Sequence record: MN445185.1
DNA: 64,000 bases
Strand: one strand, 5' to 3'
Origin: Escherichia phage vB_EcoM_EC001
Within the stretch, counting starts at the first letter, position 1. Every line of letters begins with the position of its first letter. This document shows, in pieces, positions 3,916 through 59,768 of this stretch. Under the pieces are notes generated by a model. It had not been told where the DNA came from and did no database searches. It saw nothing but the letters and a program-made list of their open reading frames with translations. A program made the translations under genes and the position numbers.

Positions 3916-4059
3916 ATGTTAACTCGTAACCATAAACGTGCCATCTTCGCCATCGTTGCTGTTGTTGCTTTCGCGGTATTGTCTATCACTGTAACTCAAG
4001 ATTACAACAAATGCATCGATAACGGTAACTCTGTTGCCATGTGTACAGGTCGCGGCTAA
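3916..4059 (+). CDS. small hydrophobic protein (47 aa, one predicted transmembrane helix)
   Basis: AAAGGAG ribosome-binding site 7 nt upstream of ATG; hydrophobic stretch AIFAIVAVVAFAVLSI; below ORF-track size cutoff. Confidence 0.45.
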   Translation: MLTRNHKRAIFAIVAVVAFAVLSITVTQDYNKCIDNGNSVAMCTGRG

Positions 4060-4429: not shown

Positions 4430-4442
4430 TATAGATAATTTA

Positions 4443-4470
4443 ATACCACCTACGGGTGGTATTATTTTTT
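4443..4470 (+). terminator. rho-independent terminator
   Basis: stem ATACCACC/GGTGGTAT, loop TACG, then TATTTTTT. Confidence 0.7.
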
Positions 4471-4487
4471 GCCTAAGGAACATGAAA

Positions 4488-4904
4488 ATGATTAATGAGA
4501 AGCTCCAAAAGTATTTAAAGAACGACACTGACTGGATGGTTCTTGACCAGTACGGACGATTTGTTCCGCTATCCAAGGATTCCCCTATACCCCGTGACAA
4601 GGCGATTTATATTCCTGACGGTAAGGGTGGCTATCGTTTCTGGGAAGGCCAGGAAGTAAAAGAGGAAATGTTCTACATGGAGCCGAAGTTCCGTGCAGCG
4701 TTCCCATCGAAAAATATTAACGGATATGTTTACAACGCAATTCCGCCAATCACGCATCCTAACTTTGAGGTTGTGAACTACCCCGCAACTGTTCTGGATT
4801 GGCAACGTGCCATTAGTGAACACTACACGATTCCGCTTGAAGGTGTTTACTTCCCATTCCGTGATATTAGTTTAGATGACTTTATTAACTCTCTTAAGGA
4901 CTAA
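4488..4904 (+). CDS. hypothetical protein
   Basis: AAGGA 8 nt upstream of ATG at 4488; ORF-track start 4407 would overlap the terminator. Confidence 0.6.
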   Translation: MINEKLQKYLKNDTDWMVLDQYGRFVPLSKDSPIPRDKAIYIPDGKGGYRFWEGQEVKEEMFYMEPKFRAAFPSKNINGYVYNAIPPITHPNFEVVNYPATVLDWQRAISEHYTIPLEGVYFPFRDISLDDFINSLKD

Positions 4905-4908
4905 AAAA

Positions 4909-5769
4909 ATGTACAGCATTACTGATTTTATCAAAAGTTCAGATTTCCCCCTACCTCCAGACCACGAAGTATTGGCTAGCGATCCGTTAACCGATGCGGC
5001 CATTGTCCAGCTGGACCGTGACAAACGTCGTACTTACGTCGTGTTGGTCGAAGGAAAGAGCTACGGCCTGTCTTCTTACGACCTGGAGCAGCAAGAGCGC
5101 TTCCTCGATGAAAACCGCAAAACGTCAATGTATAGCGCTATCTCGCGCGCGTTGTGCAAGGTAATGGCGACGATCACGGACAGCAAAAAGCGCGTCGCCG
5201 TGCTACAGGGTATCAATGCGCTAACGACCAAAATCCAACAACTTGAAGGTTTCCATTGCCCACGATTGGAAGCCGCACAGAAGGATGCTAAGGGTGATGA
5301 GGCCATGGTGCTGTTTGGAGGCAATACTGTCTTTGCAACAGCTGAAGCTTGTTATCTCACCTATCCAACCTTTAACTATACGCCAATCAGCGACACCGTA
5401 GACGGGATTAAAGTAGAGAACGTCGTGCAATGGGGTCGCGCAAATCTCAAGTTTGTGATGTCCCATGAAGAAGAAAATCAAGACGGCCTTGGCCAGAAGA
5501 TTCAACGTTGGTTCACGGCACGTTTGGACGCCGACTGGGAAGCGCATGTTAACGCACAGCTTCGTAAATTTCACGCGGTGGTCGCATTGTTAAAAGAAAA
5601 TACTCCTGCCCCGAAACAATCGAAGGCACCGGTGGTTGGCTGGACGTGTTCCGGCTGTAACCGCAACCATGTCGCCACAGTACCGAGAACCCATCGCTAC
5701 ACTTCGCAGACGATGAACATTGCTTGTCCGGCTTGCGGCAAGATCAACGAAGTTGATTATAAACCGTAG
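4909..5769 (+). CDS. hypothetical protein with C-terminal zinc-ribbon (CSGC...CPAC)
   Basis: AAGGA 8 nt upstream of ATG; four Cys in CxxC...CxxC arrangement at C-terminus. Confidence 0.6.
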   Translation: MYSITDFIKSSDFPLPPDHEVLASDPLTDAAIVQLDRDKRRTYVVLVEGKSYGLSSYDLEQQERFLDENRKTSMYSAISRALCKVMATITDSKKRVAVLQGINALTTKIQQLEGFHCPRLEAAQKDAKGDEAMVLFGGNTVFATAEACYLTYPTFNYTPISDTVDGIKVENVVQWGRANLKFVMSHEEENQDGLGQKIQRWFTARLDADWEAHVNAQLRKFHAVVALLKENTPAPKQSKAPVVGWTCSGCNRNHVATVPRTHRYTSQTMNIACPACGKINEVDYKP

Positions 5770-5774
5770 TAGTA

Positions 5775-5815
5775 CCCCCTCTTACCTTCGGGTAAGAGGG
5801 TTTTATATTTATTTT
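5775..5815 (+). terminator. rho-independent terminator (UUCG loop)
   Basis: stem CCCCTCTTACC/GGTAAGAGGG then TTTTATATTTATTTT; same stem reused at 32790. Confidence 0.8.
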
Positions 5816-5820
5816 CCGAA

Positions 5821-5857
5821 AAGAAAATAAAAGGCGCTCTCTCCCGAAGGAGAGAGC
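5821..5857 (-). terminator. rho-independent terminator on minus strand
   Basis: minus-strand reading GCTCTCTCC-TTCG-GGAGAGAGC followed by GCCTTTTATTTTCTTTT; convergent with the plus-strand terminator. Confidence 0.6.
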
Positions 5858-6175
5858 TTATTCACATCCACTTAGAGGTTAACATGAATACCTTTATGCA
5901 ACAACTGCGTCAGCAACAGCTGAAACAAGTCGCTTTTCAACAACGTCTGCAAGAGGTTACCCGCCAACCGCAGACTTCCACCCGTACCATTAAAGGACTA
6001 GGAGGTGAGATAATACTCAACAAGAGATAACATGAATATTTGCATGGACTAACTGTACCCGAGTGTTCACAGCACTCGGGTTATTCCATGCATATAAATA
6101 GTTCGTCGTATTTTTTTTTGATCTTGGCAGGACGCATAAACTGCCCGTAGGGGAGCTTAGGCTCCCCAGTGTTCG

Positions 6176-7738
6176 TTAGAACAAATCATCACCCATTCCA
6201 CCGGTGAAGAAGTTGATAGACGACGCTGTTACGGTTTCTTCTTTATCACAATCCCAAGGCAGGATGCCAACATCCTGGAAAGGTATCACTGTGTAGTGAT
6301 AAGATTCTTTAGTATCGATAATGGTGCGGTGCTTACCGCGTTGAACTTCTAAGAAGCTATGGCCGTTGACCACACGCTTGTTAAAATACATTTCACCATC
6401 GGCCTCGTTATCAAGGCTCGAACAACTATCGTAAAGACCACGACCAGGTAAGTTCTTACAGAAACCTACCGGGTCTAACGCTTTTAAGCGCTTACCTTCT
6501 GGGGAAATCTGGTGTGGGGCAATTAAGAACCCACGGTTGCGTACCACTTGGATGTTACGAGCAATACGATAAATTTCTTTGATATCACTCCCGGCAATAC
6601 CGTTGCCGTGTCCTGCTTTGCTGATTGTGCCTAAGTAGTCTGCGCGAATGCCAACAACATGATAACCGCGACGACGTAAGTCGAGAATAAGGTCGTTGAT
6701 GTAGTGCACTTTAAAATCGGAGTTGGTGTGCTTTTGGAAAACGTAGTCCCAACCGTTTGCGCGAATCTTACCACAGAGGTAATCAGACATTGCTGTTGTG
6801 TGTGCTAACTTCTCTTCAGCGGTTGCATCCTGTGCAATGGTCATCTGTGGAACTTGTCCTTCAAAATGACCGTACAGTGCTTGATAGCCGTAAGCTAAGT
6901 TAACGTCGAGTTCGTTTTCTAAACTCAAGTCAAGAATAATTGGTTGCAGTGTGCCCTTCACATCCGCCATTACTTTCTCAGGCGTGTTGAAGATAGGAAT
7001 CGACAAGCTCAGTAAGAGACTGAACAAAGACTTACAGTTAAAAGGTAACGCCGGCATTAGCCACAGTTCTTCGGTAATCCCTTTGTTACAACCGAGCATT
7101 TGGTTAATGGCTTTCCAGCCCGTCTGCAAACCATTACCTGCTGCTTTCTTGTTAATCGAGTCGAACACTTTAACAAACGGAGCCCGATTATCTGTAACCA
7201 GCTCACCGACCAGCGATGGAATCTTATTATGAGAGCGTTCACCGAACGTAGATAGCGCCTCTTTGAGTTCGAGCACTGCGGTGTTCAGATCAACACGTGT
7301 CTCAGTTCCATTCAATGCTCCGAACGCGCGACCCATTTTTGTTTTGAGTTCGACGCTCTGTAAACATTGACGTAATTGGAAATAATATTGAGACAGTTGT
7401 CGATTAAGATGCTCGGTACGTTTGTCTTCTTCCTCGGGCAAATCGTCTTCGAGGAATTTGGTAATCGTATCGTATAGAGGACGTACTTGAGTGGTGGCCA
7501 GCTTCAAGCGCTTCATAACGCTCGCGTGGTCGTATTCCATGCCGCCGTCTATGATAGATGTGATAATGTCCTTGATCTCGATGAGTGCAAAGCGCTCTTC
7601 GCCATCTTCCGCATATTCCGGAAGCTTGATCTGCATCAGAACTTTTCTTATGACATCATGATCCTTGCTAGGGTCCGTCAGCATAGATTCTGTATACAGT
7701 GCGGCTAAGGCGGTTATCAACATCATTTTACTATTCAT
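6176..7738 (-). CDS. hypothetical protein (520 aa), function unknown
   Basis: long minus-strand ORF; no recognisable catalytic motif. Confidence 0.65.
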   Translation of the reverse strand: MNSKMMLITALAALYTESMLTDPSKDHDVIRKVLMQIKLPEYAEDGEERFALIEIKDIITSIIDGGMEYDHASVMKRLKLATTQVRPLYDTITKFLEDDLPEEEDKRTEHLNRQLSQYYFQLRQCLQSVELKTKMGRAFGALNGTETRVDLNTAVLELKEALSTFGERSHNKIPSLVGELVTDNRAPFVKVFDSINKKAAGNGLQTGWKAINQMLGCNKGITEELWLMPALPFNCKSLFSLLLSLSIPIFNTPEKVMADVKGTLQPIILDLSLENELDVNLAYGYQALYGHFEGQVPQMTIAQDATAEEKLAHTTAMSDYLCGKIRANGWDYVFQKHTNSDFKVHYINDLILDLRRRGYHVVGIRADYLGTISKAGHGNGIAGSDIKEIYRIARNIQVVRNRGFLIAPHQISPEGKRLKALDPVGFCKNLPGRGLYDSCSSLDNEADGEMYFNKRVVNGHSFLEVQRGKHRTIIDTKESYHYTVIPFQDVGILPWDCDKEETVTASSINFFTGGMGDDLF

Positions 7739-7752: not shown

Positions 7753-8277
7753 ATGCAAATTCGTTTTAGTCCACCGTGGGAAGTTCAATCTAACATAGAT
7801 AAAGGGGCTGGCGTTAAAAAGTTGGAGGAACTCCAAGCAAGCTTCTTTAACTGGTTATATGACTGCTCGTCGGGCTTTAGTTCCATCATACTGCCAGTGA
7901 GTGACCCTATTTCGATTTATAAATCGATTATGGCACCACCTGCACTTCCGACTCTTTATTATGACCAGGTCTTAAACCTGGTTGAGAAAGGTACGAATGA
8001 AACCCTTGCTGATTTATATGGGGAATCATTCGACGGTCGTTTACGTTGGGTGTTCTCACAACGTGGCGATGTTGTTGTGGCGTCTTTTGCAGAAGCTAAA
8101 TCCGGACCGGGTTTTTCTTTAAGTGAAGACCACGCTGCGAAAAAGATGTTCTGCGCAGAACTTTTTAAATATATGCGTCCCAAGACTCGTGTCGTGGATG
8201 ATACGTTCAGTACGTCGACGCAGTTTGCTGCGCACGAAGTGCTGACGCAGTTGTACGCATGTCATTTATCTAAATAA
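7753..8277 (+). CDS. hypothetical protein immediately upstream of the abundant structural gene
   Basis: ATG at 7753 in frame with ORF-track 7699 ORF; only 14 bp from the divergent minus-strand start. Confidence 0.45.
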   Translation: MQIRFSPPWEVQSNIDKGAGVKKLEELQASFFNWLYDCSSGFSSIILPVSDPISIYKSIMAPPALPTLYYDQVLNLVEKGTNETLADLYGESFDGRLRWVFSQRGDVVVASFAEAKSGPGFSLSEDHAAKKMFCAELFKYMRPKTRVVDDTFSTSTQFAAHEVLTQLYACHLSK

Positions 8278-8289
8278 GGTAAACTTGAA

Positions 8290-10590
8290 ATGAAAGATAC
8301 CCGTATCGCTAGTCTGGACCAGCTGGTTCAGCAGGGCAATGCTCTGGTCGCTGCTGCCAAGGCAGGCTCTTCCGCTAATGACGTATGGCAAACCGTAGCC
8401 GTTGGCGAATCTGTACGTAAAAATGCTGCCGGCTTCACCAACCTGCGTGACACTGCTCAGCAGCACTACGAAGCTGTAAACCCTGGCAAAACCATGAGCC
8501 ACGCTGCTCAGGTTGCTTCTGCGATGATTCTGGCTGCTGCCGGTCACGAAGACGACTTCATGACCCGTGTTGCTGCCGAGAGCGCGAAGCCGGAATACGC
8601 CAGCTACATGCCGATCGCTATTTCTGGTGCAGCATCTCTGGCTGCTGACTACGGTAAAACTCCGCTGGTCGCAACTGAATACTACACCAACAAAGACCTG
8701 GACAAAAACCTGGGTCTGACCTGGACGCTGAACGTGCGTGCTCTGGAAACTCAATCCAAGTTTGCAGAAACCCTGTTCCCGACCATCACTGTGGACACCA
8801 ACGACGTCGGCATCACCGTTCGTACCAAAGTTACTACTGTATCTCGTGGTATCCTGAACGCCCTGCTGACCAAAGACGTGGTTGAAGACAACCGTCAGCC
8901 GCTGCATAACGCGCTGTCTAACCACAAAGTCCTGCAGGACGATGCTATCCGTATCGTACCTTACGTGATGGAAACCGGTGAGAACGCGAAGTTCTTCGTA
9001 TCCGAAGACATCATCGAAAACGAAAACGTTCAGCTGGGTCGTGTGCCGGCGTATCCGACCAACTACCTGAGCTTCTCTGAACGTCGTCTGAACCTGTTCC
9101 AGCTGTCTGCCCATCCGGGTATCGTGCAGGAAGGTTACGATGAAACCGACGAAATCGCACCGGGTGCAGCGCTGGGTAGCCTGCTGCTGTCTGTGCGTAA
9201 GCCGACTGAAGAAGCGAAAGATGGCGCGCTGATCAAACTGAACGTACGCGACATGCAGTTCGCTACCTTCCAGCGTCCTCCTGAAGGTGATGGCCGTGAG
9301 CTGGTCCTGCAGTTCCGTCGCACTGTGTTCTCCCTGAACGCCAAGTCTCTGGACTGGAAAGGTGCTGAAATCCCGGCACTGGCCGCTCTGGCACAGAACG
9401 ATTACACCATTCGTTATTCCATGAACATCAGCATGTCTCTGTTCACCAACGGTCAGTTCTCTGGTCGTGTTGACGTGACTGCACCGTCTCTGGAAATCGA
9501 AGGTCTGTACGACGCAACTGGTACTGCTGTTGATATCGAAAGCGGCACCGGTAAAGTTATCATCGACAACCTGAAACTGGAGCTGCTGGGCTGGCGCTTC
9601 GACGGTACTCGTACCAACGAGAACCGGAGAACCCAGGGCCTTCTGCTCGACCCGATTTGGGAACAAGAGAACTACAAACTGCAGTACGGTTCTCCGATCA
9701 TGACCAAATCTCCGGTTGGCGTTGAATACGACGACACCGAACGTCTGGACGACCTCGTTTCTGCGGTTAACATCCGTAACGAAATGCTGGCTATCACTCA
9801 GACTCTGTCTTACACCGAAGCGGTTAAGAACGCAGCTGCGTCCATGATCACTCCGTGGGACAAACCTGCTATCCGCGGCCTGGGCCGTCACTGGGTTGCT
9901 CCGTGGTACAGCGAAAGCGACTACGAAGTGGACAAAGTGATCCAGTCTCTGGATACCAAAGATGCGCTCATCAACGCCCGTCAGGGTCTGGTACAGCGTA
10001 TCGGCGACCAGGTAACTCGTGCTATCCAGGATTCTCGTTTCATGCCGGCTCTGCGCCTGCTGACTGCGGACCCGAACGCACTGCCGAAAGTTGTTATCGC
10101 AACTGACGAACCGACTGCTGCAATGCTGCTGCTGGTTCAGGGTGACCAGCGTCTGCTGGGCGATCGCTACGAGTACGAAGTTATCACCACCAACGATGAC
10201 CGCTGGCGTGTGAAGAACGAAGCTGACGGCAGCTGGACTCGCCGCCTGCAGTGGGTTCTGAAAGTTCCAACCGCTGATGACGGTTCTTACTGTGTTCTGA
10301 ACTGGGGTAACCACTTCTGGTCTCCGATCATGGTAACCAACATCAACATCCAGCGTAACGGCGCTACCAGCAAAGAGCTGGCAGTACAGCCTCGTAACGC
10401 GCACATCTGCCACTGCCCGATCACTGGTCTGATCTGGATTAAAGGTATCACCAAGTTCGTGGAAGAGAAACTGGCGTTCAACGTCACTACTACTTCCAAC
10501 GGTACTGGCGGTACTAATGGCGGTAATGCGGGTGATGTTGGCGGCGGCGCTACCCAGCCAGGTACTGGCGGTGAAGGCGCTGGCGGCTAA
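8290..10590 (+). CDS. abundant virion structural protein, 766 aa; major capsid protein candidate (tail sheath not excluded)
   Basis: extreme bias to enterobacterial optimal codons (CTG, CGT, GGT, ACC, AAA); size in range of jumbo-phage capsid proteins; Gly-rich C-terminal tail; strong terminator after. Confidence 0.5.
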   Translation: MKDTRIASLDQLVQQGNALVAAAKAGSSANDVWQTVAVGESVRKNAAGFTNLRDTAQQHYEAVNPGKTMSHAAQVASAMILAAAGHEDDFMTRVAAESAKPEYASYMPIAISGAASLAADYGKTPLVATEYYTNKDLDKNLGLTWTLNVRALETQSKFAETLFPTITVDTNDVGITVRTKVTTVSRGILNALLTKDVVEDNRQPLHNALSNHKVLQDDAIRIVPYVMETGENAKFFVSEDIIENENVQLGRVPAYPTNYLSFSERRLNLFQLSAHPGIVQEGYDETDEIAPGAALGSLLLSVRKPTEEAKDGALIKLNVRDMQFATFQRPPEGDGRELVLQFRRTVFSLNAKSLDWKGAEIPALAALAQNDYTIRYSMNISMSLFTNGQFSGRVDVTAPSLEIEGLYDATGTAVDIESGTGKVIIDNLKLELLGWRFDGTRTNENRRTQGLLLDPIWEQENYKLQYGSPIMTKSPVGVEYDDTERLDDLVSAVNIRNEMLAITQTLSYTEAVKNAAASMITPWDKPAIRGLGRHWVAPWYSESDYEVDKVIQSLDTKDALINARQGLVQRIGDQVTRAIQDSRFMPALRLLTADPNALPKVVIATDEPTAAMLLLVQGDQRLLGDRYEYEVITTNDDRWRVKNEADGSWTRRLQWVLKVPTADDGSYCVLNWGNHFWSPIMVTNINIQRNGATSKELAVQPRNAHICHCPITGLIWIKGITKFVEEKLAFNVTTTSNGTGGTNGGNAGDVGGGATQPGTGGEGAGG

Positions 10591-10620
10591 TAATCCGTAA
10601 GGATTACGTTGCCTAAGATT

Positions 10621-10659
10621 AGCTTACTCCCTTCGGGGAGTAAGCTTTTTCTTTTTTTC
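10621..10659 (+). terminator. rho-independent terminator (UUCG loop)
   Basis: AGCTTACTCCC-TTCG-GGGAGTAAGCT then T-run. Confidence 0.85.
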
Positions 10660-13748: not shown

Positions 13749-15419
13749 ATGAGCATTACTGTTGAACAAATCAAAAACGTCATCGTTAAACACCTCGATC
13801 AGGACGCGGTACTGTCGCAGCTGAATAATGTGATGCGCAGCCGTAGCATTCCGCCAGATCAGGCGTTAAAGATTGCGACGTATGTTGCGGCATGGGCAGC
13901 ATCCAAAGGGGGTAGTGAAGCACAGGTTATCGCATATGCGGTCGATGCGTATAAAGCAGCTGCCTATCAGCAGGTGCATAACGCAGGCGACGCGTATAAC
14001 GACGATCGTCACACCAAACTGGTTAATGCTTGGGAACAAGTCGGTAAGATTCTTGCCGAAATTCGTTCTCAGCAGTCTGGCGGTTTGGGTGGCAGTGGTG
14101 GTTTAGGTGGTGGTAGCAACGCAGGTGGGTTACTGGGCGGTAACAGTTCTGGCGGTGTTCGTGTTACTGATGGCCTGACCATGTCTTCTGCGCCATCTGG
14201 TGGTGTTAAGATTGGTAACACAGATGCGGCACTAACCGTGATTGCTGGCGGTGAAGGTCTTAACCTGGTCAATGATCCTATTCTGAACCCACAACCGGCG
14301 CAAGTAGCCCCAGCACAACAGCCCCGGCCTGAACCAGCACCGGTGCCTGTACAACCAATGCCGGTGTCTAATGCTACAGTTAATAACCCAGTGCTTTCCC
14401 CACTCGGCGCAACAGAAGAAACCGAGAAGGACACTATCAATGGCCCAATTAACAACATTCTGCAGGAGATTGATTTGATGGAAGACTACGCACTTCACGA
14501 GCTGAAAACCCCCGAGCTTAAAATGTCGATTCCAGCGAAGGAAGCTAACAGTCGCATTAAGCAATCTGTTTACGCGGAAACTCGTGATTGGGCTACACCG
14601 TTGCAAGATATCTTTAACGGTAATGAAGAGGTTGTTTTCTACGACGGGGCTGACCTGATTGTGCGTGCACGTGATAGCTATCGCGCGTATCTGGTCGGTG
14701 TTAACACTGACATGTGCGAACGCATGAAACAATTCGTTGCTAAGCACGATGCGCTGAAATCCGATCTCGACAACCTGGCACTGGTAGAAGATGTTGAAAC
14801 TATCATGGCTAAGGTGAAGCGTACGATCGATGAACTGCGTAAGAACACGAAAGAACTGCACGAATATGCGATTGCGAACAGCAGCGAAGCAGAAGTGGTT
14901 ATCAGTGAAATTTCTCGCTTTGCTAATGCGTACCTGGCGAATATCACTTTCCTGGTACACAACGCGCTGTCGCTGGGCACTAAGCGTGGTAAAGATGTGC
15001 CGAAGTTCAAAGCTATCGATTTCGAACGGAAAATCAGCGATATTGATTTCTTCGTAAAAGATCTGTTCACAGCAACCGCTGGCGACAACGGTGTAAGTGA
15101 ATATGAAGACTGGTTCCGTGACCTGTTCCTGATGGTAGCAAACTCTCTGCGCAAACTGACTATCAAGCTGAGCGATTCTGGCAAGGTGGTTAATCTGATT
15201 CAGAGCCAGTTCACCATCGTGATTCCAGGCATGTACCATTCTGTTGATAAACACGACGTAGTTACGGTAGCGTCTCTGGGCAATACCGCAGACCCAGTTG
15301 TGTCTATCTACGAAGCAGTACAGGAAAACGTGCCACATGCAATTGTGTTAATGCAGCTGCCGCAGCGCACCTACCTGCTTCTGAGCAATGGTGAGAAAAC
15401 TGCACCAGTGTTGTACTAA
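13749..15419 (+). CDS. hypothetical protein with Gly-rich and Pro/Ala/Gln-rich linker (scaffold or internal head protein candidate)
   Basis: AAGGAG ribosome-binding site; low-complexity GGLGGSGGLGGG and PQPAQVAPAQQPRPEPAPVPVQP segments. Confidence 0.6.
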   Translation: MSITVEQIKNVIVKHLDQDAVLSQLNNVMRSRSIPPDQALKIATYVAAWAASKGGSEAQVIAYAVDAYKAAAYQQVHNAGDAYNDDRHTKLVNAWEQVGKILAEIRSQQSGGLGGSGGLGGGSNAGGLLGGNSSGGVRVTDGLTMSSAPSGGVKIGNTDAALTVIAGGEGLNLVNDPILNPQPAQVAPAQQPRPEPAPVPVQPMPVSNATVNNPVLSPLGATEETEKDTINGPINNILQEIDLMEDYALHELKTPELKMSIPAKEANSRIKQSVYAETRDWATPLQDIFNGNEEVVFYDGADLIVRARDSYRAYLVGVNTDMCERMKQFVAKHDALKSDLDNLALVEDVETIMAKVKRTIDELRKNTKELHEYAIANSSEAEVVISEISRFANAYLANITFLVHNALSLGTKRGKDVPKFKAIDFERKISDIDFFVKDLFTATAGDNGVSEYEDWFRDLFLMVANSLRKLTIKLSDSGKVVNLIQSQFTIVIPGMYHSVDKHDVVTVASLGNTADPVVSIYEAVQENVPHAIVLMQLPQRTYLLLSNGEKTAPVLY

Positions 15420-52604: not shown

Positions 52605-52641
52605 ACCCTACTCCTTCGGGAGTAGGGTTTCTTCTTTTTTG
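52605..52641 (+). terminator. rho-independent terminator (UUCG loop)
   Basis: ACCCTACTCC-TTCG-GGAGTAGGGT then T-run. Confidence 0.85.
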
Positions 52642-52738: not shown

Positions 52739-53185
52739 ATGTACATTCTGAATAACGAACTTACTAAATACGCTAGCAAAAACCCGATTATGGTTTCTTT
52801 CCTAATCGTGATGGCGGCCAACAAACAAGACCCTAGCGAATTCACTACTGAGGACTTCGAAGAGATTATCGCCAACGCCAAAGAAGCCACGTTCCAGACT
52901 ACGGAACCCACACGTGACGAGTTCCCTCTAGGTGAAGCCGGTGACGTAATGTTTAACGACATGGTTGCTTCGTATTACATCAGTAGACGTGGTATGGAAA
53001 TCGAATACGACGAACTTCCTACTAGCAGCTTTGCTGAAATGATTCGTGATTATCGTCGTCAAGTTGTCTCTGACGATGTTGTAAAGAAATACATGGCACA
53101 AATCAGTCCATTCAGTCTTGAATTCGAAAACCGCGCGGTTGCCTTAGCGACGCATCGCCTGCGTTTAGAAAAAGAAGTACACTAA
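52739..53185 (+). CDS. hypothetical acidic protein
   Basis: first gene after promoter-like element; 148 aa. Confidence 0.55.
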   Translation: MYILNNELTKYASKNPIMVSFLIVMAANKQDPSEFTTEDFEEIIANAKEATFQTTEPTRDEFPLGEAGDVMFNDMVASYYISRRGMEIEYDELPTSSFAEMIRDYRRQVVSDDVVKKYMAQISPFSLEFENRAVALATHRLRLEKEVH

Positions 53186-53246: not shown

Positions 53247-53465
53247 ATGCGCAACCTGTTCTCCAAATCTGAAATCAAACCTGTTGTTGAAACCGCAGCC
53301 AAACGTAAGCCCGACATGATTGACCTGCTGCTGAAAATGTCTGCAGCAGAAGCCAAAGCTTTCATGAATACAATGAAAGACGACGAAAAAAAGATTGACA
53401 ATGTTGAAGTAACCTATGGTGTTAAAGACCGCCCAAAGAATAACGACCTTGTGTGGGTCTGTTAA
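53247..53465 (+). CDS. small (72 aa) protein with codon usage of a very highly expressed gene
   Basis: AAAGGAA ribosome-binding site; near-exclusive optimal codons; followed by strong terminator. Confidence 0.55.
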   Translation: MRNLFSKSEIKPVVETAAKRKPDMIDLLLKMSAAEAKAFMNTMKDDEKKIDNVEVTYGVKDRPKNNDLVWVC

Positions 53466-53497
53466 TCGACGATTGAGGATATAGTCGTGAAGAAAAG

Positions 53498-53524
53498 GGA
53501 GCTTCGGCTCCCCTTCTTTTTTTG
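53498..53524 (+). terminator. rho-independent terminator (UUCG loop)
   Basis: GGGAGC-TTCG-GCTCCC then CTTCTTTTTTTG. Confidence 0.85.
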
Positions 53525-53643: not shown

Positions 53644-54441
53644 ATGTCTTTTACTTCAAAACAGAATCTGCTAAAACTCATCAACGAAGAGAATAAGATA
53701 AGCCCACCGCTTACCTTTGACGATGTTGATATCGGACTGCCGGAGGTTGTGTCAGTAGACGGTCGTGATTCGGAGGTGGTACTAACCTCGAAAATGCGCG
53801 GTGATGAAGGTACGCAAGTGATTGTGGACTACCATCGTCGTCCATTAGAGGACTACCTTACAGGCGATGTTGCCTTTGGCGATGAAGATGTGCATACCAC
53901 GCACGACTTACTCGCGGCGATTAACGAGCGTTTTAATCTGTCTATCTTACCTGAGGATATCGAAGATAACCCCATTGAAGGACAGACGCACACAGTCGTT
54001 GCTGTTGAAACTTCCCACGAGTGGAGAAGTCAAGCGGTCATCGAGCTGAAACCTGCTACACCTCTGGCAGAAGTAATAACCAATACAGAGTTGAGCGGTC
54101 TTCTGTACCCGGATCACCAGGACATCCAGTTGGGTCAGGCGTATATCTATTCGCGCGACATCGATTGTAGCCACATCTCTCGTTTCCTGAGCCTCTTAGC
54201 GGTCGGTATCGAAGTAGATGACACGGCGTTAGCAATCGAACTCAACAAATGTGTTCCTGAGATTTGGGTGGCTGAAGATACCCCATCCCCGTATAACTTG
54301 CGTGGTGCTACTGTCGTATTCGACGGCGTACCTGCAGACTTACCGGGAGCAAATACGGCGTTCGCGAAAGTCGTGTCAGTGCAACTGACCGATAAATGTA
54401 CGAACTTCCAGGGCAGCCTCAACTTACACTTTAACAACTAG
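53644..54441 (+). CDS. paralogue-family protein P1 (N-module A + LHYN-type C-module)
   Basis: shares N-terminal pattern and C-terminal CTNFQGSLNLHFNN with neighbours. Confidence 0.6.
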   Translation: MSFTSKQNLLKLINEENKISPPLTFDDVDIGLPEVVSVDGRDSEVVLTSKMRGDEGTQVIVDYHRRPLEDYLTGDVAFGDEDVHTTHDLLAAINERFNLSILPEDIEDNPIEGQTHTVVAVETSHEWRSQAVIELKPATPLAEVITNTELSGLLYPDHQDIQLGQAYIYSRDIDCSHISRFLSLLAVGIEVDDTALAIELNKCVPEIWVAEDTPSPYNLRGATVVFDGVPADLPGANTAFAKVVSVQLTDKCTNFQGSLNLHFNN

Positions 54442-54451
54442 GAGGGTATAG

Positions 54452-55294
54452 GTGTCTATTTACGATAAGCCCTCGAAAGAGATGTTGTTAGATGCTATTA
54501 ACCGACAGAACGGATTAACGGCCAATCCACTCACATGGGAGCAGGTTGCAACTGGCTTCCCTGAGTCTGTCCAAACGCCTGGCGCTGACCGGAATACACG
54601 TGTACTCTTATACGGGTTGAACGGCAAGGGCTACAAAGGCAACGTTACGCTCGAATACGACCGTATCGAAATGGAAATTCTGTTCAGGAACGTAATACCG
54701 GTAGTCGTTGCCGACCCGGTAAATAAACTCTCTGAGTTGTTGCCGTTTCTGAATGCGAAATACGGCTTGTCTTTAGTTGCCGATGATATCGTTGACCAGT
54801 CAGTAAAAGATTTGGGAGAAAGCTGGTTAATCGATGTGACTATTAAGCCCGGTTGCTTGGCCTGGCAAGGTGGTTTCCGTTTACGCTTTGCGAAGTTCTT
54901 CCCGAACCTGGCGGATGTGGTGACGGATGTTGACCTCAGCGCAATTATCGCACCGTTCGTGGTTGCTAGTAAACCGCAGGCTGAATATGTGGCGTATGGT
55001 TACGATTGGACTGAACTGCAAAAACAGTTCACTACCGATTGGGCTTACAACCGTGCAATCACTGCAGCGGATGTTGAGTTGTTGAATGAAGTGGTGCCAT
55101 TAAAGTTTGCATATGTGACGGGGGCGAATGCGCAACCTGAACAAATTGCACTCCAAGGTGCACGATTTATGGGGATAACTTCAGTCACACCGAACGATAG
55201 TTACAACCCCGATTATCAGCGTGTGGCGATTATCAAGCTAGCTGCGGACAGCAACTACGCCGGTAATCTCATCCTTCATTATCTCCCGATATAA
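54452..55294 (+). CDS. paralogue-family protein P2
   Basis: AGGAGGG ribosome-binding site, GTG start; NRQNGL ... LNAKYGLSL ... NLILHY. Confidence 0.6.
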   Translation: MSIYDKPSKEMLLDAINRQNGLTANPLTWEQVATGFPESVQTPGADRNTRVLLYGLNGKGYKGNVTLEYDRIEMEILFRNVIPVVVADPVNKLSELLPFLNAKYGLSLVADDIVDQSVKDLGESWLIDVTIKPGCLAWQGGFRLRFAKFFPNLADVVTDVDLSAIIAPFVVASKPQAEYVAYGYDWTELQKQFTTDWAYNRAITAADVELLNEVVPLKFAYVTGANAQPEQIALQGARFMGITSVTPNDSYNPDYQRVAIIKLAADSNYAGNLILHYLPI

Positions 55295-55304
55295 GGATTT
55301 TGAC

Positions 55305-56150
55305 ATGCCACTTTTAGCCACAGCTGAAAAGATTATTATCGCGGAGGTTAACGTCGAAAACAATCTCGACTTAAAAGTCGAGGATGTTGTTTTTGGTGTC
55401 CCTGCGATTCCAACGTCTGACGAAGACTTGGCAAAAGCTAACGGTCACAACGCGATGGTGCGTATTCAGGCATTGGCCACGGCTAATGCTATCGGTGCCA
55501 CTACCGTGTACTACGATCGTGTTGACTTCGCAGACATGTTTACCGATCCGGACGGGATTCAACCTTTACGTGTTCCTGCACGTCTCGATGCTGTTTACCA
55601 GATGCATGACGTGGTCGGGTTAATTAACCAGTATTACGGTCTCAGCCTTAAACCTGCAGATGTGGTGAATACCGAAATCGACAGGAAGACATGGCGTGTG
55701 GATCTGATTGCCACGCCCTCTTCTTTAGGTTGGATAGGGCAACAACAGGTACAGCTGTTACCAGGCGATGCGTTGCTTCCTGCAAACTTCGAACCCTTAA
55801 CAGTGATGCCTTACGAGTATCCGTATTTCAACATCAAGGTCGGTCAAGGTGCAGTTTATTCGTATCCCTGGCGCTTTGATAATTTCGCGGAGGAATTTCA
55901 ACGACTAGGTGCTGCGATAACCACAGAACGTCTGGCACAGATTCTCAAAACGGTCACCGGTGATAACTGGACAACATACCGTAACCCTATCGACTTTAAC
56001 CTTCGTGAAGCCGTCGTCGTCTATAACGGGCGTAACAAAGCGGAATTACCAACCAACCCAGCAGTCGACAACGTGCTGATTGTGGAGCTGTCGTTGTACT
56101 GTCTGAATTTTGGCGGGCGTTTGTATTTGCATTACAACGACCCTGATTAA
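55305..56150 (+). CDS. paralogue-family protein P3
   Basis: TTVYYDRVDFADMF, LINQYYGLSL, LYCLNFGGRLYLHYN. Confidence 0.6.
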   Translation: MPLLATAEKIIIAEVNVENNLDLKVEDVVFGVPAIPTSDEDLAKANGHNAMVRIQALATANAIGATTVYYDRVDFADMFTDPDGIQPLRVPARLDAVYQMHDVVGLINQYYGLSLKPADVVNTEIDRKTWRVDLIATPSSLGWIGQQQVQLLPGDALLPANFEPLTVMPYEYPYFNIKVGQGAVYSYPWRFDNFAEEFQRLGAAITTERLAQILKTVTGDNWTTYRNPIDFNLREAVVVYNGRNKAELPTNPAVDNVLIVELSLYCLNFGGRLYLHYNDPD

Positions 56151-56171
56151 TCCTGAGTAAAGGAAGTAAGA

Positions 56172-57083
56172 ATGAAACCTTTAAACAAAACGTCCGATAA
56201 GCTGGTTCTGGATTTTATTAATGAGAAAAACCCAGACGCAGAACTGGAACTTTCTAAAATAACGCTCGGCACACCGACCCCTATTACCGATGAAGGTGCT
56301 GATCGCAATACCAGCATGACCCTGACTGCGAAAAAGAACTCCGGGTACATCGGTACTCAGGACGTGACTTATAATCGCCTGGAAGGCGGTGCGCTGTTCC
56401 GTAATGTAACCGCATACCTCGACGTTAAACTGCCGAAAACCACCACCGACCTGCTGACGACCCTGAACACCCAATACGGATTGAAGCTGACCGAAGACGA
56501 TATCGTTCCGGCGGCTATTCCGGAAAATACCAACCCGCCGCTGACTAACCCGAACGATCCGGACCCAGCACCGGTTGACCACGTCATTACCTTCAAAGAA
56601 GACTGCTACGCTTATCTGGGCAGCATCCCGGTTAAAATCGGTGCTAAGCCTCAGGTTGGTGAACGTCTGAGTCTGGTGGTAACACAAACCAAGCTCGACG
56701 GCTTGGTTTACCCAGATGGTCCAAGCGAAGCGAAGGGTCAGGGCTACATCTACTCTTACGGTGTAGACTGCACAGCAATCGCAGCATTCCTGAAAGTACA
56801 GGCGAAAGGTGTTATCGCTGGCGACTCTGCATTCCCGGTTGAGCTGAATAAAGTTGTGCCGGAACTGTGGGTTGCATCTGATGAGCCTGCGGATTATAAC
56901 CTGAAAGGCGCTAACGTGTTGTACGTTGGTTCTACTACTGACGATGGCACTGCTTCAGGCGACGAACCTAAGAAACCGGTTGAAGGTGCAAACACTGCTT
57001 ACAACCAGGTTCTGCTGCTGCAGCTGGATGACACTCTGTGCACCAACTTCCAGGGTATCATGTACCTGCACTTTAATGCCTAA
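56172..57083 (+). CDS. paralogue-family protein P4, the strongly codon-optimised (likely most abundant) member
   Basis: AAAGGAAG ribosome-binding site; heavy optimal-codon bias; CTNFQGIMYLHFNA; own terminator downstream. Confidence 0.65.
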   Translation: MKPLNKTSDKLVLDFINEKNPDAELELSKITLGTPTPITDEGADRNTSMTLTAKKNSGYIGTQDVTYNRLEGGALFRNVTAYLDVKLPKTTTDLLTTLNTQYGLKLTEDDIVPAAIPENTNPPLTNPNDPDPAPVDHVITFKEDCYAYLGSIPVKIGAKPQVGERLSLVVTQTKLDGLVYPDGPSEAKGQGYIYSYGVDCTAIAAFLKVQAKGVIAGDSAFPVELNKVVPELWVASDEPADYNLKGANVLYVGSTTDDGTASGDEPKKPVEGANTAYNQVLLLQLDDTLCTNFQGIMYLHFNA

Positions 57084-57096
57084 TTAGGCCTCGCTG

Positions 57097-57137
57097 GGAG
57101 GAGGAAATCCTCCTCCTGGCTACTCCTTTCTTTTTTG
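57097..57137 (+). terminator. rho-independent terminator
   Basis: GAGGAGG-AAAT-CCTCCTC then CTGGCTACTCCTTTCTTTTTTGG. Confidence 0.7.
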
Positions 57138-57152
57138 GCCGAGGAGGCTATT

Positions 57153-57992
57153 ATGGCTTTATATAGTCTGTCTCAGCGACAATATCTGTACGATGCGATT
57201 AATGCCGAAAACCCGGATGCTGTGCTACCGATGGGTTTAGACAATGCTATCATCGGCACGCCGAAAGCAATCACACCGACAGCAAGCGGTGCCAATACTG
57301 AGATTATCATTCGTGGTCGTCAAGGTCGTGGCTATATCGGTCCTCAGACGTTCCGTTATAAGCGCTTGTCGCTGAACGACTTATTTAAGAACATGACACC
57401 TCAGGTAACTGCACCGAATGCCTACGGTTGGTTGAACGTGGAGTCGAAACGTACTGCGTTTGCGCAGAACCTGAACGGTCGTTATGGATTAAACCTGGTT
57501 GCAGATGATATCCCAGAACAATACGTTTATCTGAACGTAAACAACACGATGCGTATTAACGCTAGCTGTATCCAATACACTGGCAGCATCACCTTTATGT
57601 CTATCCGGGGTAAGAATAGCCTCGAAGACCTCGTGGTAAACGACATCTTGTTGGCTTTGAACCACCCTGCAGCAGCAAGCACTGGTAAGAAATACATGGG
57701 CTTCTTGACGTACGGGGAAGACTTTACTGACGAAGTGCAGGTTATGGCCTCGTTTAAGAACGGGCGAATGGACGTAGGAAGTAACTTTGATTTGGGTTAC
57801 ACGTCCAATCTGATGGCCACATTGGTCGCACGTGGGGTACCGTCGTTTGATCCGACGAACTGCACAATTACCCGCTACAAAACGAGTGAGTTGGCGACCG
57901 CCAATAAAGCGTACGATAACGTATTGCTGATTACCGGCATTCAGAACGACCCGAAAGTAATCGGCGAGTGTATGTTGCACTACAACAACTAG
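57153..57992 (+). CDS. paralogue-family protein P5
   Basis: GAGGAGG ribosome-binding site, ATG 57153; LNGRYGLNLVADDI; ECMLHYNN. Confidence 0.6.
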   Translation: MALYSLSQRQYLYDAINAENPDAVLPMGLDNAIIGTPKAITPTASGANTEIIIRGRQGRGYIGPQTFRYKRLSLNDLFKNMTPQVTAPNAYGWLNVESKRTAFAQNLNGRYGLNLVADDIPEQYVYLNVNNTMRINASCIQYTGSITFMSIRGKNSLEDLVVNDILLALNHPAAASTGKKYMGFLTYGEDFTDEVQVMASFKNGRMDVGSNFDLGYTSNLMATLVARGVPSFDPTNCTITRYKTSELATANKAYDNVLLITGIQNDPKVIGECMLHYNN

Positions 57993-58002
57993 GAATTAGC
58001 GA

Positions 58003-58890
58003 ATGGCTATTTATCAACCTTCTAAAGACGTCCTGTTGGCAGCAGTGAACGCACAGAACTCGCTTGCTGTTAAGATGACTGACATCATCTGGTCCTCGCC
58101 AAAGGACATCCGTGGTACGGAGAAGGAAACGCTGACTAACCGTAACACGCAAATTAAAATTACGGCAGATGGGGTAACGGGCTCTACCTGGTCGGGTAAG
58201 AAAAATGTCTTCTACAACCGCATGAAAGTCGAAGACTTGTTAGTGCTGATCGGTGACACGTTGGCGATCGGCCCATCCAACGAAACCTTGTATGCGGCCA
58301 TTCCTGGACTGAACCAACGTTACGGTTTTGTTCTGGAAGAAGCTGACCTGCAGGACGCAGATATCGAATGGAACGGTGATAAGACCGAAGGAACTGTGCG
58401 CGTTGTTGCACATCCGGAGTCTATCGGTTGGGTTGGACAGGCGACATTTAAAGTCGTGAAAGGTGATGAGTCGTTAGTCTCTGCAGTCACCACTAACGTC
58501 CTGACCGGTCTGAAATACCCGAACGGTCAGATGGGTTCCGAAAATGTTACTGCGGTCATTGCAGAGGTTTATTCCTACCCGTACAACTTCACCAAATACC
58601 GTGATACTCTGCTGGCATACACGCCAGGTATTCTGTCCGGACAGCCGTTGACGGATATGGTTAACATGCTGAAATATATTACGGGTACGGCATGGGTAGC
58701 GACCACCTCCGCTTCCTACGGTTTGGCGGGTGCGGAGGTTATCAGCGTTGGTCTGAATGACCCTGTTGCAATGCCGACAAACGCGAAGTACAAGTATGCG
58801 CTGGTGTTGAAACTGCCTGTTACCTGTACCACCATCGTCGGAACGTTGTATCTCCAGTTCAACGATCTGGACGATCCAAGCGAGGTATAA
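58003..58890 (+). CDS. paralogue-family protein P6
   Basis: LNQRYGFVL; CTTIVGTLYLQFND. Confidence 0.6.
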   Translation: MAIYQPSKDVLLAAVNAQNSLAVKMTDIIWSSPKDIRGTEKETLTNRNTQIKITADGVTGSTWSGKKNVFYNRMKVEDLLVLIGDTLAIGPSNETLYAAIPGLNQRYGFVLEEADLQDADIEWNGDKTEGTVRVVAHPESIGWVGQATFKVVKGDESLVSAVTTNVLTGLKYPNGQMGSENVTAVIAEVYSYPYNFTKYRDTLLAYTPGILSGQPLTDMVNMLKYITGTAWVATTSASYGLAGAEVISVGLNDPVAMPTNAKYKYALVLKLPVTCTTIVGTLYLQFNDLDDPSEV

Positions 58891-58893
58891 TTG

Positions 58894-59721
58894 ATGATCA
58901 ACTATGCTAAGCCGTCAAACGAGTTGGTCTTTGACCTCATTAACCGGGATAACCCAAACCTACCTATTAAAGCGTCGCCGGCAAACTGCTACGTGGAGAA
59001 AGTGACGCAGGTTCCCGTTAATGCAGCTTCCAACAACCGCAATACGTCGGCACGCTTGCGCGGTATTCAGGGTTCCGGATTTCGAGACGCAATCACCGTT
59101 TACTACGACCGTGTGAACTTAGCGCGGTTATTGCCGTGGGGTCCTTCTGTTCAGGCGCAGTTCGTCACGTTTGACGCGCCCAACCTCCACTCAGCCTTTT
59201 CGGTGCTCTTGGATACTTACGGAGTAAACTTCTCTGCAATCGATATCTATAACCTCCCACTGGCGGGTCCCAATACCCCAAATTACACCAATACACAGAA
59301 CATCGTAGCGCTATCGACATCTCCGGCTTATATCGGTTCTGCGACGTTGCGTTATAACCGTGGTTTACCGGTACTAGATACTTCGGTGAAAACGGATGTC
59401 TTGAATGCGATTCAAGAGCCTATTTCACCGTCTCTCGGTAAGAAGTGTATTGATTTGTTGACGTACGGTATTGACTTTACCGCGTATAAAAACCTACTGA
59501 CAGTAGATGCTTCTGGCCTACCGCAGTGGGCTGGTTTGCGTAAGGTGTTGGATGACCTGGGTATTCCGAACTACGCGGGGCCACTGAACAGTAACACCGT
59601 TCAGGATGTGCCGACATCCACCGCTCAGTTCGCTAACAAATCGTACGACCGCGTGGTTGTCCAAACGGGTATCGATGAGGAAGGCGTGAAAGGCGTGGCG
59701 TACTACCACTATAACAGCTAA
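58894..59721 (+). CDS. paralogue-family protein P7
   Basis: ITVYYDRVNLARLL; GVAYYHYNS. Confidence 0.6.
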   Translation: MINYAKPSNELVFDLINRDNPNLPIKASPANCYVEKVTQVPVNAASNNRNTSARLRGIQGSGFRDAITVYYDRVNLARLLPWGPSVQAQFVTFDAPNLHSAFSVLLDTYGVNFSAIDIYNLPLAGPNTPNYTNTQNIVALSTSPAYIGSATLRYNRGLPVLDTSVKTDVLNAIQEPISPSLGKKCIDLLTYGIDFTAYKNLLTVDASGLPQWAGLRKVLDDLGIPNYAGPLNSNTVQDVPTSTAQFANKSYDRVVVQTGIDEEGVKGVAYYHYNS

Positions 59722-59726
59722 GTGTA

Positions 59727-59752: not shown

Positions 59753-59768
59753 GCGATGCGGAGTCCCT

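What the first reader, a model, noticed from the sequence alone, without database searches (positions are those of the whole stretch)
8290..10590. Three genes with extreme optimal-codon bias mark the most abundant proteins
The 766-aa gene (8290-10590), paralogue P4 (56172-57083) and the 72-aa gene (53247-53465) use almost only enterobacterial optimal codons, unlike neighbours. This indicates very high expression in an E. coli-like host. The 766-aa product is probably the major capsid or sheath protein. The 72-aa protein is unexpected: it could be a very abundant internal or decoration protein, or a host-takeover factor. Strong antisense ORFs (for example 8266-10413) are artefacts of this bias.
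Basis: seen in the sequence. Interest (0 to 1): 0.45.

Follow-up and report, generated by a model that had tools for sequence, protein, structure and literature searches.

The report
Host-adapted codons in abundant jumbo-phage genes
The window is from an SPN3US-like Salmonella jumbo phage, and the codon-biased genes are its major capsid protein, a known abundant virion protein (gp141) and a small conserved non-virion protein of unknown function, which is the ordinary pattern of heavily expressed phage genes using the host's preferred codons.

Summary
Against E. coli ribosomal-protein and elongation-factor genes, 8290-10590 has a codon adaptation index (CAI) of 0.77, first of 83 window genes (median about 0.39, resampling z = 17). 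P4 (56172-57083) scores 0.63 (z = 8). The 72-aa gene scores 0.61, but on its own only z = 2.6. Its bias becomes convincing because six diverged orthologues repeat it.

The window is about 97-99% identical to Salmonella phage SPN3US. The 766-aa gene is the major capsid protein gp75, not the sheath. P4 is gp141, a DUF7941 "paralog family B" protein. Published virion proteomics gives 1,560 and more than 300 copies for these two. Across the SPN3US genome, CAI also picks out gp53, gp54, chimallin and the tail tube, and it correlates with virion abundance (rho 0.40; 0.65 within family B).

The 72-aa protein (gp136) is absent from the published virion list, so a decoration or internal-protein role is not supported. 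Its function is unknown. The antisense ORF is an artefact: the capsid gene has no TTA, CTA or TCA codons where about 25 are expected.

This is ordinary translational selection on already characterised proteins. The only new lead is the gp135-gp136 pair.

The parts
8290..10590 (+). Major capsid protein gene (SPN3US gp75 orthologue, 766 aa; propeptide cleavage motif ATE at residues 128-130). Most codon-adapted gene in the window.
   Evidence: CAI 0.773, z = 17.1. Pfam PF25620 PhiKZ_MCP, E = 2e-225. 99.3% nt identity to SPN3US major head protein. ATE-130 is present and the mature mass is 70.4 kDa, as published (PMC5694885). PDB relatives include phiKZ gp120, 8y6v.
8266..10624 (-). Antisense open frame in register with the MCP codons (785 codons; listed ORF 8266-10413). 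An artefact of codon bias, not a gene.
   Evidence: 0 TTA/CTA/TCA codons in the MCP against 24.8 expected, P about 1e-11. The other antisense frames have 44 and 27 stops.
10621..10646 (+). Strong intrinsic-terminator-like hairpin (11-bp stem, T tract) just after the MCP stop codon.
56172..57083 (+). P4 = gp141 orthologue (303 aa). A DUF7941 / SPN3US paralog family B protein and the abundant member of the array.
   Evidence: CAI 0.633, z = 8.1. Pfam PF25613 DUF7941, full length, E = 7e-85. Published SC/M 9.39, more than 300 copies per capsid. The orthologue in Erwinia phage pEa_SNUABM_4 also has CAI 0.64.
53644..59721 (+). Tandem array of seven full-length DUF7941 paralogues (gp138-gp144). Only gp141 and, more weakly, gp143 (58003-58890, CAI 0.50, z = 4.4) are codon-adapted.
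   Evidence: Pfam hits E = 1e-65 to 6e-87. Within family B, CAI tracks published abundance: Spearman 0.65, p = 0.002, n = 20.
53247..53465 (+). 72-aa gene (gp136 orthologue; 8.3 kDa, pI 8.8). Conserved and clade-restricted; non-virion according to published proteomics; function unknown.
   Evidence: CAI 0.606, z = 2.6 alone. Six orthologues have CAI 0.56-0.76, Stouffer z 8.6. dN/dS 0.15 against SPN3US. phrog_10202, unknown function. Only 11 clusters among 1.8 billion representative proteins. AF2 pLDDT 57 with one helix, residues 24-47. Absent from the virion list.
52739..53185 (+). gp135 orthologue (148 aa, acidic), the upstream partner of the 72-aa gene. Moderately biased here and strongly biased in relatives.
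52605..52628 (+). Terminator-like hairpin upstream of gp135. Together with 53497-53512 it brackets gp135-gp136 as a compact unit.
53497..53512 (+). Terminator-like hairpin plus T tract just after the 72-aa gene.
3916..4059 (+). gp66 orthologue (47 aa with a hydrophobic helix; probably a small membrane protein).
   Evidence: CAI 0.654, z = 2.8. CAI 0.667, rank 6 of 264 in SPN3US. Conserved in Erwinia relatives.
13749..15419 (+). gp78 orthologue (556 aa, non-virion, unknown function). Intermediate CAI but the third-strongest statistical signal in the window.
   Evidence: CAI 0.532, z = 6.9; z = 6.8 with GC3 preserved. phrog_8185, unknown function. No PDB relative by sequence.

Best explanation
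This is translational selection. The window comes from an SPN3US-like (Seoulvirus) jumbo phage of Salmonella and E. coli. No tRNA gene lies in the window, and the SPN3US record annotates only two, so the phage translates with host tRNAs. Genes whose products are needed in the largest amounts have accumulated host-preferred synonymous codons: the capsid protein gp75 (1,560 copies per virion) and the abundant DUF7941 protein gp141 (more than 300 copies). Elsewhere in the genome the same applies to gp53, gp54, chimallin and the tail tube. Low-copy paralogues and neighbours have not. Avoiding the rare Leu/Ser codons TTA, CTA and TCA removes every stop from the in-register antisense frame, which creates the long false antisense ORF. 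By the same logic the 72-aa gene gp136 and its upstream partner gp135 are inferred to be heavily translated non-virion proteins.

Shown here: the bias, its independence from amino-acid content and GC3, the gene identities, the link to published virion abundance, and the antisense mechanism.

Inferred: that selection for translation efficiency or accuracy is the cause, and that gp136 and gp135 are abundant.
For: - CAI ranks and resampling z-scores; GC3-preserving control.
- Codon by codon, MCP usage mirrors the E. coli ribosomal-protein set, including T-ending optima. Examples (MCP vs E. coli rp set vs window background): CTG 94% vs 82% vs 28%; GGA+GGG 0% vs 3% vs 31%.
- The reference-free PC1 of RSCU correlates with CAI at r = 0.88, loading CGT, CTG, TCT, GGT and ATC positively and CGG, CGA, TTA, TCG and GGG negatively.
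- The genome-wide SPN3US top CAI list is gp75, gp53, gp22 (chimallin; PMC9365700), gp172 and gp54. The tail tube gp255 is rank 9 and gp141 rank 11.
- Spearman CAI vs published SC/M: 0.40 (p = 1.5e-4, n = 86); 0.56 in the window (n = 26); 0.65 in family B (n = 20) (data from PMC5694885).
- The bias in gp136 and gp135 orthologues is conserved across phages with 35-67% protein identity.
- No tRNA genes in the window; two annotated in SPN3US.
- The general rule that phage head and tail genes are biased toward host-preferred codons is published (Lucks et al. 2008, PMC2266997).
Against: - The correlation with abundance is only moderate. The tail sheath gp256 (SC/M 8.84) has CAI 0.54 and gp160 (SC/M 9.46) has 0.49, while the small virion protein gp172 has CAI 0.71 but SC/M 0.86.
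- Synonymous divergence between the window and SPN3US does not fall with CAI overall (rho 0.02), although the MCP and gp141 are below the median.
- The reference set is E. coli, not Salmonella.
- Spectral counts are semi-quantitative and cover virions only.
- There are no expression data for gp136, gp135, gp66 or gp78.
- The six orthologues are not fully independent tests.
Confidence: 0.85

Rival explanations
1. The apparent bias is a by-product of base composition (higher GC3) or of unusual amino-acid content, not selection on codons.
For: The MCP has GC 0.55 and GC3 0.60, against about 0.48 and 0.50 for the window.
Against: Resampling holds the amino-acid sequence fixed (z = 17.1 and 8.1). 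Preserving each codon's GC3 class as well still gives z = 13.0 and 6.3. Many of the preferred codons end in T (GCT, GGT, CGT, TCT, ACT, GTT), and G/C-ending CGG, TCG, GGG and CCC are avoided.
Confidence: 0.03
2. The high CAI of the 72-aa gene is a chance fluctuation in a short gene and says nothing about expression.
For: Alone it gives z = 2.6 (15 of 5000 resamples), or 2.3 with GC3 preserved, among 83 genes tested, so about 0.25-0.5 such genes are expected by chance. Only 66 informative codons. Its composition-expected CAI is already high (0.44).
Against: All six diverged orthologues examined (Seoulvirus SPAsTU and five Erwinia phages, 35-67% protein identity) are the top or near-top gene in their 8-kb neighbourhood, with z 2.3-5.0 and Stouffer 8.6. 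It ranks 15 of 264 in SPN3US. It has no TTA/CTA/TCA codons.
Confidence: 0.1
3. The 72-aa protein is a very abundant virion component (decoration or internal head protein).
For: High CAI, and a position immediately upstream of the virion-protein DUF7941 array.
Against: It is not among the 86 proteins identified in purified SPN3US virions, although a 7-kDa protein (gp172) was detected there. Its neighbour gp135 is listed as non-virion. The AF2 model is mostly disordered with one helix.
Confidence: 0.07
4. The long antisense ORF 8266-10413 is a real overlapping gene.
For: 715 aa with a GTG start.
Against: It is exactly in register with the MCP codons, and its openness follows from the absence of three rare sense codons. 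No annotation exists in any of the more than 50 related genomes. The translation is low-complexity and rich in Val, Arg and Gln.
Confidence: 0.01
5. The biased genes were recently acquired from the host or from another, better-adapted phage, so the bias is inherited rather than selected in place.
For: The MCP and gp141 show lower synonymous divergence from SPN3US (dS 0.029 and 0.046) than the median (0.077), which could also reflect recent recombination.
Against: The MCP belongs to the PhiKZ-type MCP family, and DUF7941 is reported as chimallivirus-specific (preprint 10.64898/2026.04.21.720040). Both sit in conserved synteny in all relatives. The bias is present in orthologues across three genera.
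Confidence: 0.03

Closest known systems
Salmonella phage SPN3US gp75, major capsid protein (PhiKZ-type MCP, Pfam PF25620; T = 27 capsid)
   Same: 99.3% nucleotide identity, same length, same ATE-130 prohead-protease cleavage motif and same processed mass (70.4 kDa), same neighbours. Sequence relatives with solved structures include phiKZ gp120.
   Different: One amino-acid change and 16 synonymous changes from SPN3US. The host phage differs from SPN3US in gene content elsewhere.
SPN3US gp141 / paralog family B, equal to the DUF7941 family (Goslar gp22 and gp23, phiKZ gp126 and gp127)
   Same: Full-length DUF7941 match, fourth member of the same tandem array, 97.9% nt identity to SPN3US gp141. 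As in Goslar, one or two paralogues are made in hundreds of copies and the rest in few.
   Different: Location is unsettled. SPN3US work assigns the family to the head because it was found in tailless particles (PMC5105663). The 2026 Goslar preprint proposes baseplate-anchored filaments. Nothing here decides between them.
Translational selection on phage structural genes (Lucks et al. 2008, PMC2266997)
   Same: Head and tail genes are biased toward host-preferred codons relative to non-structural genes, and the bias remains after controlling for amino-acid content and GC3.
   Different: Here the effect is concentrated in a few very high-copy genes rather than in structural genes generally (virion median CAI 0.397 vs non-virion 0.380). 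It also marks non-virion genes (chimallin, gp136, gp135, gp66, gp78).

Membership tests
PhiKZ-type major capsid protein (PF25620) | Significant full-length match to the family profile | tested here: met
   750 bits against a cut-off of 27, E = 2e-225, profile positions 2-634 of 635. phrog_3231 major head protein, E = 4e-297.
PhiKZ-type major capsid protein (PF25620) | N-terminal propeptide removed by the prohead protease at an A-x-E motif (SPN3US: ATE-130) | tested here: met
   The motif is present at residues 128-130, and the predicted mature mass of 70.4 kDa equals the published value (PMC5694885). Cleavage itself was not tested.
PhiKZ-type major capsid protein (PF25620) | Most abundant virion protein | not testable with these tools
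   Published for the 99%-identical SPN3US gp75: SC/M 18.97, 1,560 copies.
   The only Pfam and PHROG hits are MCP families. The SPN3US sheath is gp256 at 227140-229185, outside the window.
DUF7941 / SPN3US paralog family B | Full-length match to PF25613 | tested here: met
   gp141: 285 bits, E = 7e-85, profile positions 1-276 of 276. P1-P3 and P5-P7 also match over their full length.
DUF7941 / SPN3US paralog family B | N-terminal globular domain, disordered linker, C-terminal globular domain (as in Goslar gp22) | tested here: inconclusive
   A Pro/Asn-rich stretch, about residues 117-136 (PENTNPPLTNPNDPDPAPVD), is visible in the translation. No structure model was made.
DUF7941 / SPN3US paralog family B | Head-to-tail filament formation; location on the virion | not testable with these tools
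   Goslar gp22 forms filaments in vitro (preprint). SPN3US family B was found in tailless heads.
Translationally selected (highly expressed) gene class | CAI within the range of host ribosomal-protein genes and far above the genome background, not explained by composition | tested here: met
   MCP 0.77, gp141 0.63 and gp136 0.61, against a host reference range of 0.56-0.84 and a window median of 0.39. Controls. For gp136 the statistical support comes from orthologues.
Translationally selected (highly expressed) gene class | Measured high protein abundance | tested here: inconclusive
   Met for gp75 and gp141 from published virion mass spectrometry. No data could be obtained for gp136, gp135, gp66 or gp78; the infected-cell proteomics paper, J Virol 2019 (PMC6384053), is not held.
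Virion decoration or internal head protein (for the 72-aa protein) | Detection in purified virions | not tested
   No test was run here. The published 86-protein SPN3US virion list does not include gp136, which argues against membership.

The most novel reading that the evidence does not exclude
gp135 and gp136 form a conserved, terminator-bracketed, strongly codon-adapted two-gene unit. It encodes abundant non-virion proteins specific to the SPN3US/Machinavirus/Erskinevirus clade. gp135 has a confidently predicted all-helical fold with no structural relative. gp136 is a small basic protein, mostly disordered, with an invariant MRN-F N-terminus. They always sit just upstream of the DUF7941 array. 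They could therefore be a new assembly chaperone or scaffold for the filament-forming DUF7941 proteins, or an abundant host-takeover factor.
Probability: 0.2. Interest if true: 0.4.

Novelty: already known. Interest (0 to 1): 0.15.

Why it matters
The practical value is small. The result shows that a simple codon index can pick out the high-copy proteins of a jumbo phage from sequence alone. It recovered the capsid protein, gp53 and gp54, chimallin, the tail tube and the one abundant member of a 20-gene paralogue family. It also flags a few uncharacterised non-virion genes (gp135, gp136, gp66, gp78) as likely to be heavily expressed and worth checking in existing infection proteomics. The identities and abundances of the two main genes are already published, and the phenomenon is textbook translational selection.

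Tried and rejected
1. Structure of the 72-aa protein. The AF2 model from a 13-sequence alignment had pLDDT 57 with a single helix, too poor for a fold search.
2. Remote homologues of the 72-aa protein. A profile search of 1.8 billion representative proteins found 11 clusters, all in the same clade. Pfam found nothing and the PDB sequence search found only noise.
4. Test that codon-biased genes evolve more slowly at synonymous sites. There is no correlation between the window and SPN3US (rho 0.02), so this is not used as support.
5. Infected-cell proteomics (Weintraub et al. 2019, PMC6384053). The paper is not held in the library.
6. A search for earlier codon-adaptation work on SPN3US found no papers.
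7. Sigma-70 promoter scans around the MCP and gp136 gave only weak matches near the chance level. They are not meaningful for a phage that uses its own RNA polymerases.
8. PDB sequence searches for gp78 and gp135 found nothing.
Full report
**What the window is.** The 2,301-bp gene at 8290-10590 is 99.3% identical in DNA to the major head protein gene of Salmonella phage SPN3US. It is 98.7-99.3% identical to those of about 20 other Seoulvirus jumbo phages from Salmonella, E. coli and Proteus, with more distant matches in Erwinia phages. I mapped the SPN3US RefSeq annotation onto the window by BLAST. Gene order is collinear from gp62 to gp147, and most genes are 94-100% identical. The literature gene number equals 266 minus the RefSeq ACQ60_gp number. 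This was checked with the sheath gp256, tube gp255 and protease gp245.

**The three genes in the finding:**
- 8290-10590 is gp75.
- 56172-57083 is gp141.
- 53247-53465 is gp136.

**Checking the observation.** I built CAI weights from 30 E. coli K-12 genes: 28 ribosomal-protein genes plus tufA and fusA, 4,894 codons in all. I then scored 83 intact window genes.

| Gene | CAI | Rank |
|---|---|---|
| gp75 (MCP) | 0.773 | 1 |
| gp66 (3916-4059, 47 aa) | 0.654 | 2 |
| gp141 (P4) | 0.633 | 3 |
| gp136 (72 aa) | 0.606 | 4 |
| gp78 | 0.532 | 5 |

The window median is about 0.39. The reference genes themselves score 0.56-0.84, and weakly expressed E. coli gsp genes score 0.22-0.38. Flanking genes are ordinary: gp74 0.37, gp76 0.28, gp140 0.37, gp142 0.42.

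I resampled synonymous codons from window-wide usage with each protein sequence held fixed:
- z = 17.1 for gp75, 8.1 for gp141 and 6.9 for gp78.
- z = 5.3 for gp81, 4.4 for gp143 and gp103, 4.3 for gp65 and 3.8 for gp84.
- z = 2.8 for gp66 and 2.6 for gp136.

Additionally preserving each codon's GC3 class still gives 13.0, 6.3 and 2.3 for the three named genes, so the effect is not a composition artefact.

Codon by codon, the capsid gene copies the host ribosomal-protein pattern:
- CTG makes up 94% of Leu codons.
- GGA and GGG are absent.
- CGT plus CGC make up 95% of Arg codons.
- ATC makes up 88% of Ile codons.
- The T-ending optima GCT, TCT, ACT and GTT are used.

A PCA of RSCU that uses no host reference puts gp75 and gp141 at the end of PC1. 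PC1 correlates with CAI at r = 0.88.

There are three qualifications:
- "Almost only optimal codons" is strictly true only for gp75. Its optimal-codon fraction is 0.74 and its rare-codon fraction 0.8%, against 0.43 and 13.5% for the background.
- The 72-aa gene is not individually significant after multiple testing.

**The 72-aa gene, rescued by comparison.** Orthologues exist at the same genomic position in 57 phage records, down to about 33% protein identity. I fetched six diverged ones: SPAsTU, pEa_SNUABM_4, Caitlin, Huxley, phiEaH2 and Asesino. They are 35-67% identical to the window protein.
- Every orthologue has CAI 0.56-0.76 and is the highest or near-highest gene in its 8-kb neighbourhood.
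- Against local background, z is 2.3-5.0 and the combined Stouffer z is 8.6. These are not fully independent tests.
- The upstream 140-165-aa gene, the gp135 orthologue, is also raised in all six (0.54-0.68; Stouffer 8.8).
- The window gene shows dN/dS 0.15 against SPN3US, so it is a real protein-coding gene under purifying selection.

**Antisense ORF.** The minus-strand ORF 8266-10413 is in register with the gp75 codons. Stops in that frame can arise only from sense TTA, CTA or TCA. gp75 has none among 70 Leu and 41 Ser codons, where window usage predicts 24.8 (P about 1e-11). The frame therefore stays open for 785 codons (8266-10624). The other two antisense frames contain 44 and 27 stops.

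**Gene identities:**
- **gp75** matches Pfam PhiKZ_MCP (E = 2e-225) and PHROG "major head protein". It has solved relatives, including phiKZ gp120. It keeps the published ATE-130 protease site, which gives a 70.4-kDa mature protein (PMC5694885). It is the capsid protein, not the sheath.
- **gp141** is a full-length DUF7941 protein (E = 7e-85). P1-P3 and P5-P7 are too. This is SPN3US "paralog family B".
- **gp136** belongs to phrog_10202 (unknown function) and has no Pfam or PDB match. A profile search of 1.8 billion representative proteins found only 11 clusters. AlphaFold gave pLDDT 57 with one helix.

**Does the bias mark abundance?** Published mass spectrometry of purified SPN3US virions (Ali et al. 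2017, PMC5694885) gives the following:
- gp75 ranks first, with SC/M 18.97 and 1,560 copies.
- gp141 ranks fifth, with SC/M 9.39 and more than 300 copies by densitometry.
- Within family B, gp141 and gp160 are high, gp143 is intermediate and the rest are low.

I computed CAI for all 264 SPN3US genes. The top of the list is:

| Gene | CAI | Note |
|---|---|---|
| gp75 | 0.771 | major capsid protein |
| gp53 | 0.743 | more than 600 copies |
| gp22 | 0.724 | chimallin homologue, RefSeq tag gp244 (PMC9365700) |
| gp172 | 0.713 | small virion protein |
| gp54 | 0.705 | more than 600 copies |
| gp66 | 0.667 | rank 6 |
| gp255 | 0.648 | tail tube, rank 9 |
| gp141 | 0.610 | rank 11 |
| gp136 | 0.565 | rank 15 |

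Spearman correlation of CAI with SC/M is 0.40 for all 86 virion proteins (p = 1.5e-4). It is 0.56 for the 26 encoded in the window (p = 0.003) and 0.65 within the 20 family-B paralogues (p = 0.002).

The link is therefore real but imperfect. The sheath gp256 (SC/M 8.84) reaches only CAI 0.54 and gp160 only 0.49.

gp136 is not in the virion list, although a 7-kDa protein was detected there. Its neighbour gp135 is listed as a non-virion protein (PMC7411985). A non-virion role remains open. The infected-cell proteomics paper that could settle its abundance is not held.

**Mechanism.** The best explanation is ordinary translational selection. The phage has no tRNA genes in the window, and only two are annotated in SPN3US. 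It therefore depends on host tRNAs, and the genes with the greatest synthesis demand are enriched in host-preferred codons. This is an established pattern for phage head and tail genes (Lucks et al. 2008, PMC2266997). One expected corollary, lower synonymous divergence in biased genes, was not seen genome-wide (rho 0.02), although gp75 and gp141 are below the median.

**Context of the small gene.** gp135 and gp136 are bracketed by terminator-like hairpins at 52605-52628 and 53497-53512. In all relatives they lie just upstream of the DUF7941 array. A variable slot sits between them and the array:
- nothing in this window;
- gp137 in SPN3US;
- a 241-aa gene in SPAsTU;
- an EPS depolymerase in three of the Erwinia phages examined (Huxley, phiEaH2, Asesino).

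gp135 folds confidently (pLDDT 94.3) into an all-helical domain with no structural relative. A role as an assembly factor for the DUF7941 proteins, or in host takeover, is speculation.

**An open point from the literature.** SPN3US studies place family B in the head, because its members were found in tailless particles (PMC5105663). A 2026 preprint on phage Goslar reports three things (10.64898/2026.04.21.720040):
- DUF7941 proteins gp22 and gp23 are present at about 580 and 2,140 copies per virion.
- gp22 forms filaments in vitro.
- The authors propose a baseplate-anchored "fibre cloud".

phiKZ gp127, a weak sequence match to gp141 (E = 0.012), is modelled in the outer baseplate (PMC13250141). 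My data do not decide the location. They only show that gp141 is the paralogue built for high output.

**Verdict.** Both are already characterised and the phenomenon is standard. Interest is low. The gp135-gp136 pair, gp66 and gp78 are modest leads.

Noticed in passing
window 3916-4059 (+): gp66 orthologue: a 47-aa protein with a central hydrophobic helix. It has the second-highest CAI in the window (0.654) and ranks 6 of 264 in SPN3US. It is not in the virion proteome and is conserved (53-64% identity) in Erwinia jumbo phages. It may be a heavily expressed small membrane protein.
   Followed up: partly
window 13749-15419 (+): gp78 orthologue: 556 aa, non-virion, unknown function (phrog_8185), with a weak coiled-coil-like signal. 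It gives the third-strongest codon-adaptation signal in the window (z = 6.9) and has no PDB relative by sequence.
   Followed up: partly
[not shown]
   Followed up: yes
window 53466-53643; L009 4240-4965; L012-L014 about 4400-6250: The slot between the 72-aa gene and the DUF7941 array is variable. It is empty here, holds gp137 (143 aa) in SPN3US, a 241-aa gene in SPAsTU, and an EPS depolymerase in Erwinia phages Huxley, phiEaH2 and Asesino.
   Followed up: partly
window 42002-42229 and elsewhere: This phage lacks several SPN3US genes, with no tblastn hit: gp117 (annotated as a head maturation protease in the RefSeq record), gp118, gp133 and gp137. gp99, gp122 and gp123 are only 40-49% identical in protein, so these are replaced or strongly diverged cassettes. 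The window has its own ORFs at 28637-29131 and 52140-52532.
   Followed up: partly
window 53644-63124: Among the DUF7941 paralogues, only gp141 and gp143 are codon-adapted, matching their published high and intermediate virion abundance. This is a clean within-family example of expression-linked codon divergence after duplication.
   Followed up: yes
L004 15768-17621 (SPN3US, outside the window): The SPN3US chimallin homologue (literature gp22, RefSeq tag gp244) has the third-highest CAI in the genome (0.724), consistent with massive synthesis of the phage-nucleus shell.
   Followed up: partly
SPFM phage records (H46, H54, H69-H77): In several SPFM genome records the 72-aa gene and gp135 appear fragmented or frameshifted, with only partial hits of 26-64% coverage. 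Assembly errors look more likely than real pseudogenes.
   Followed up: no
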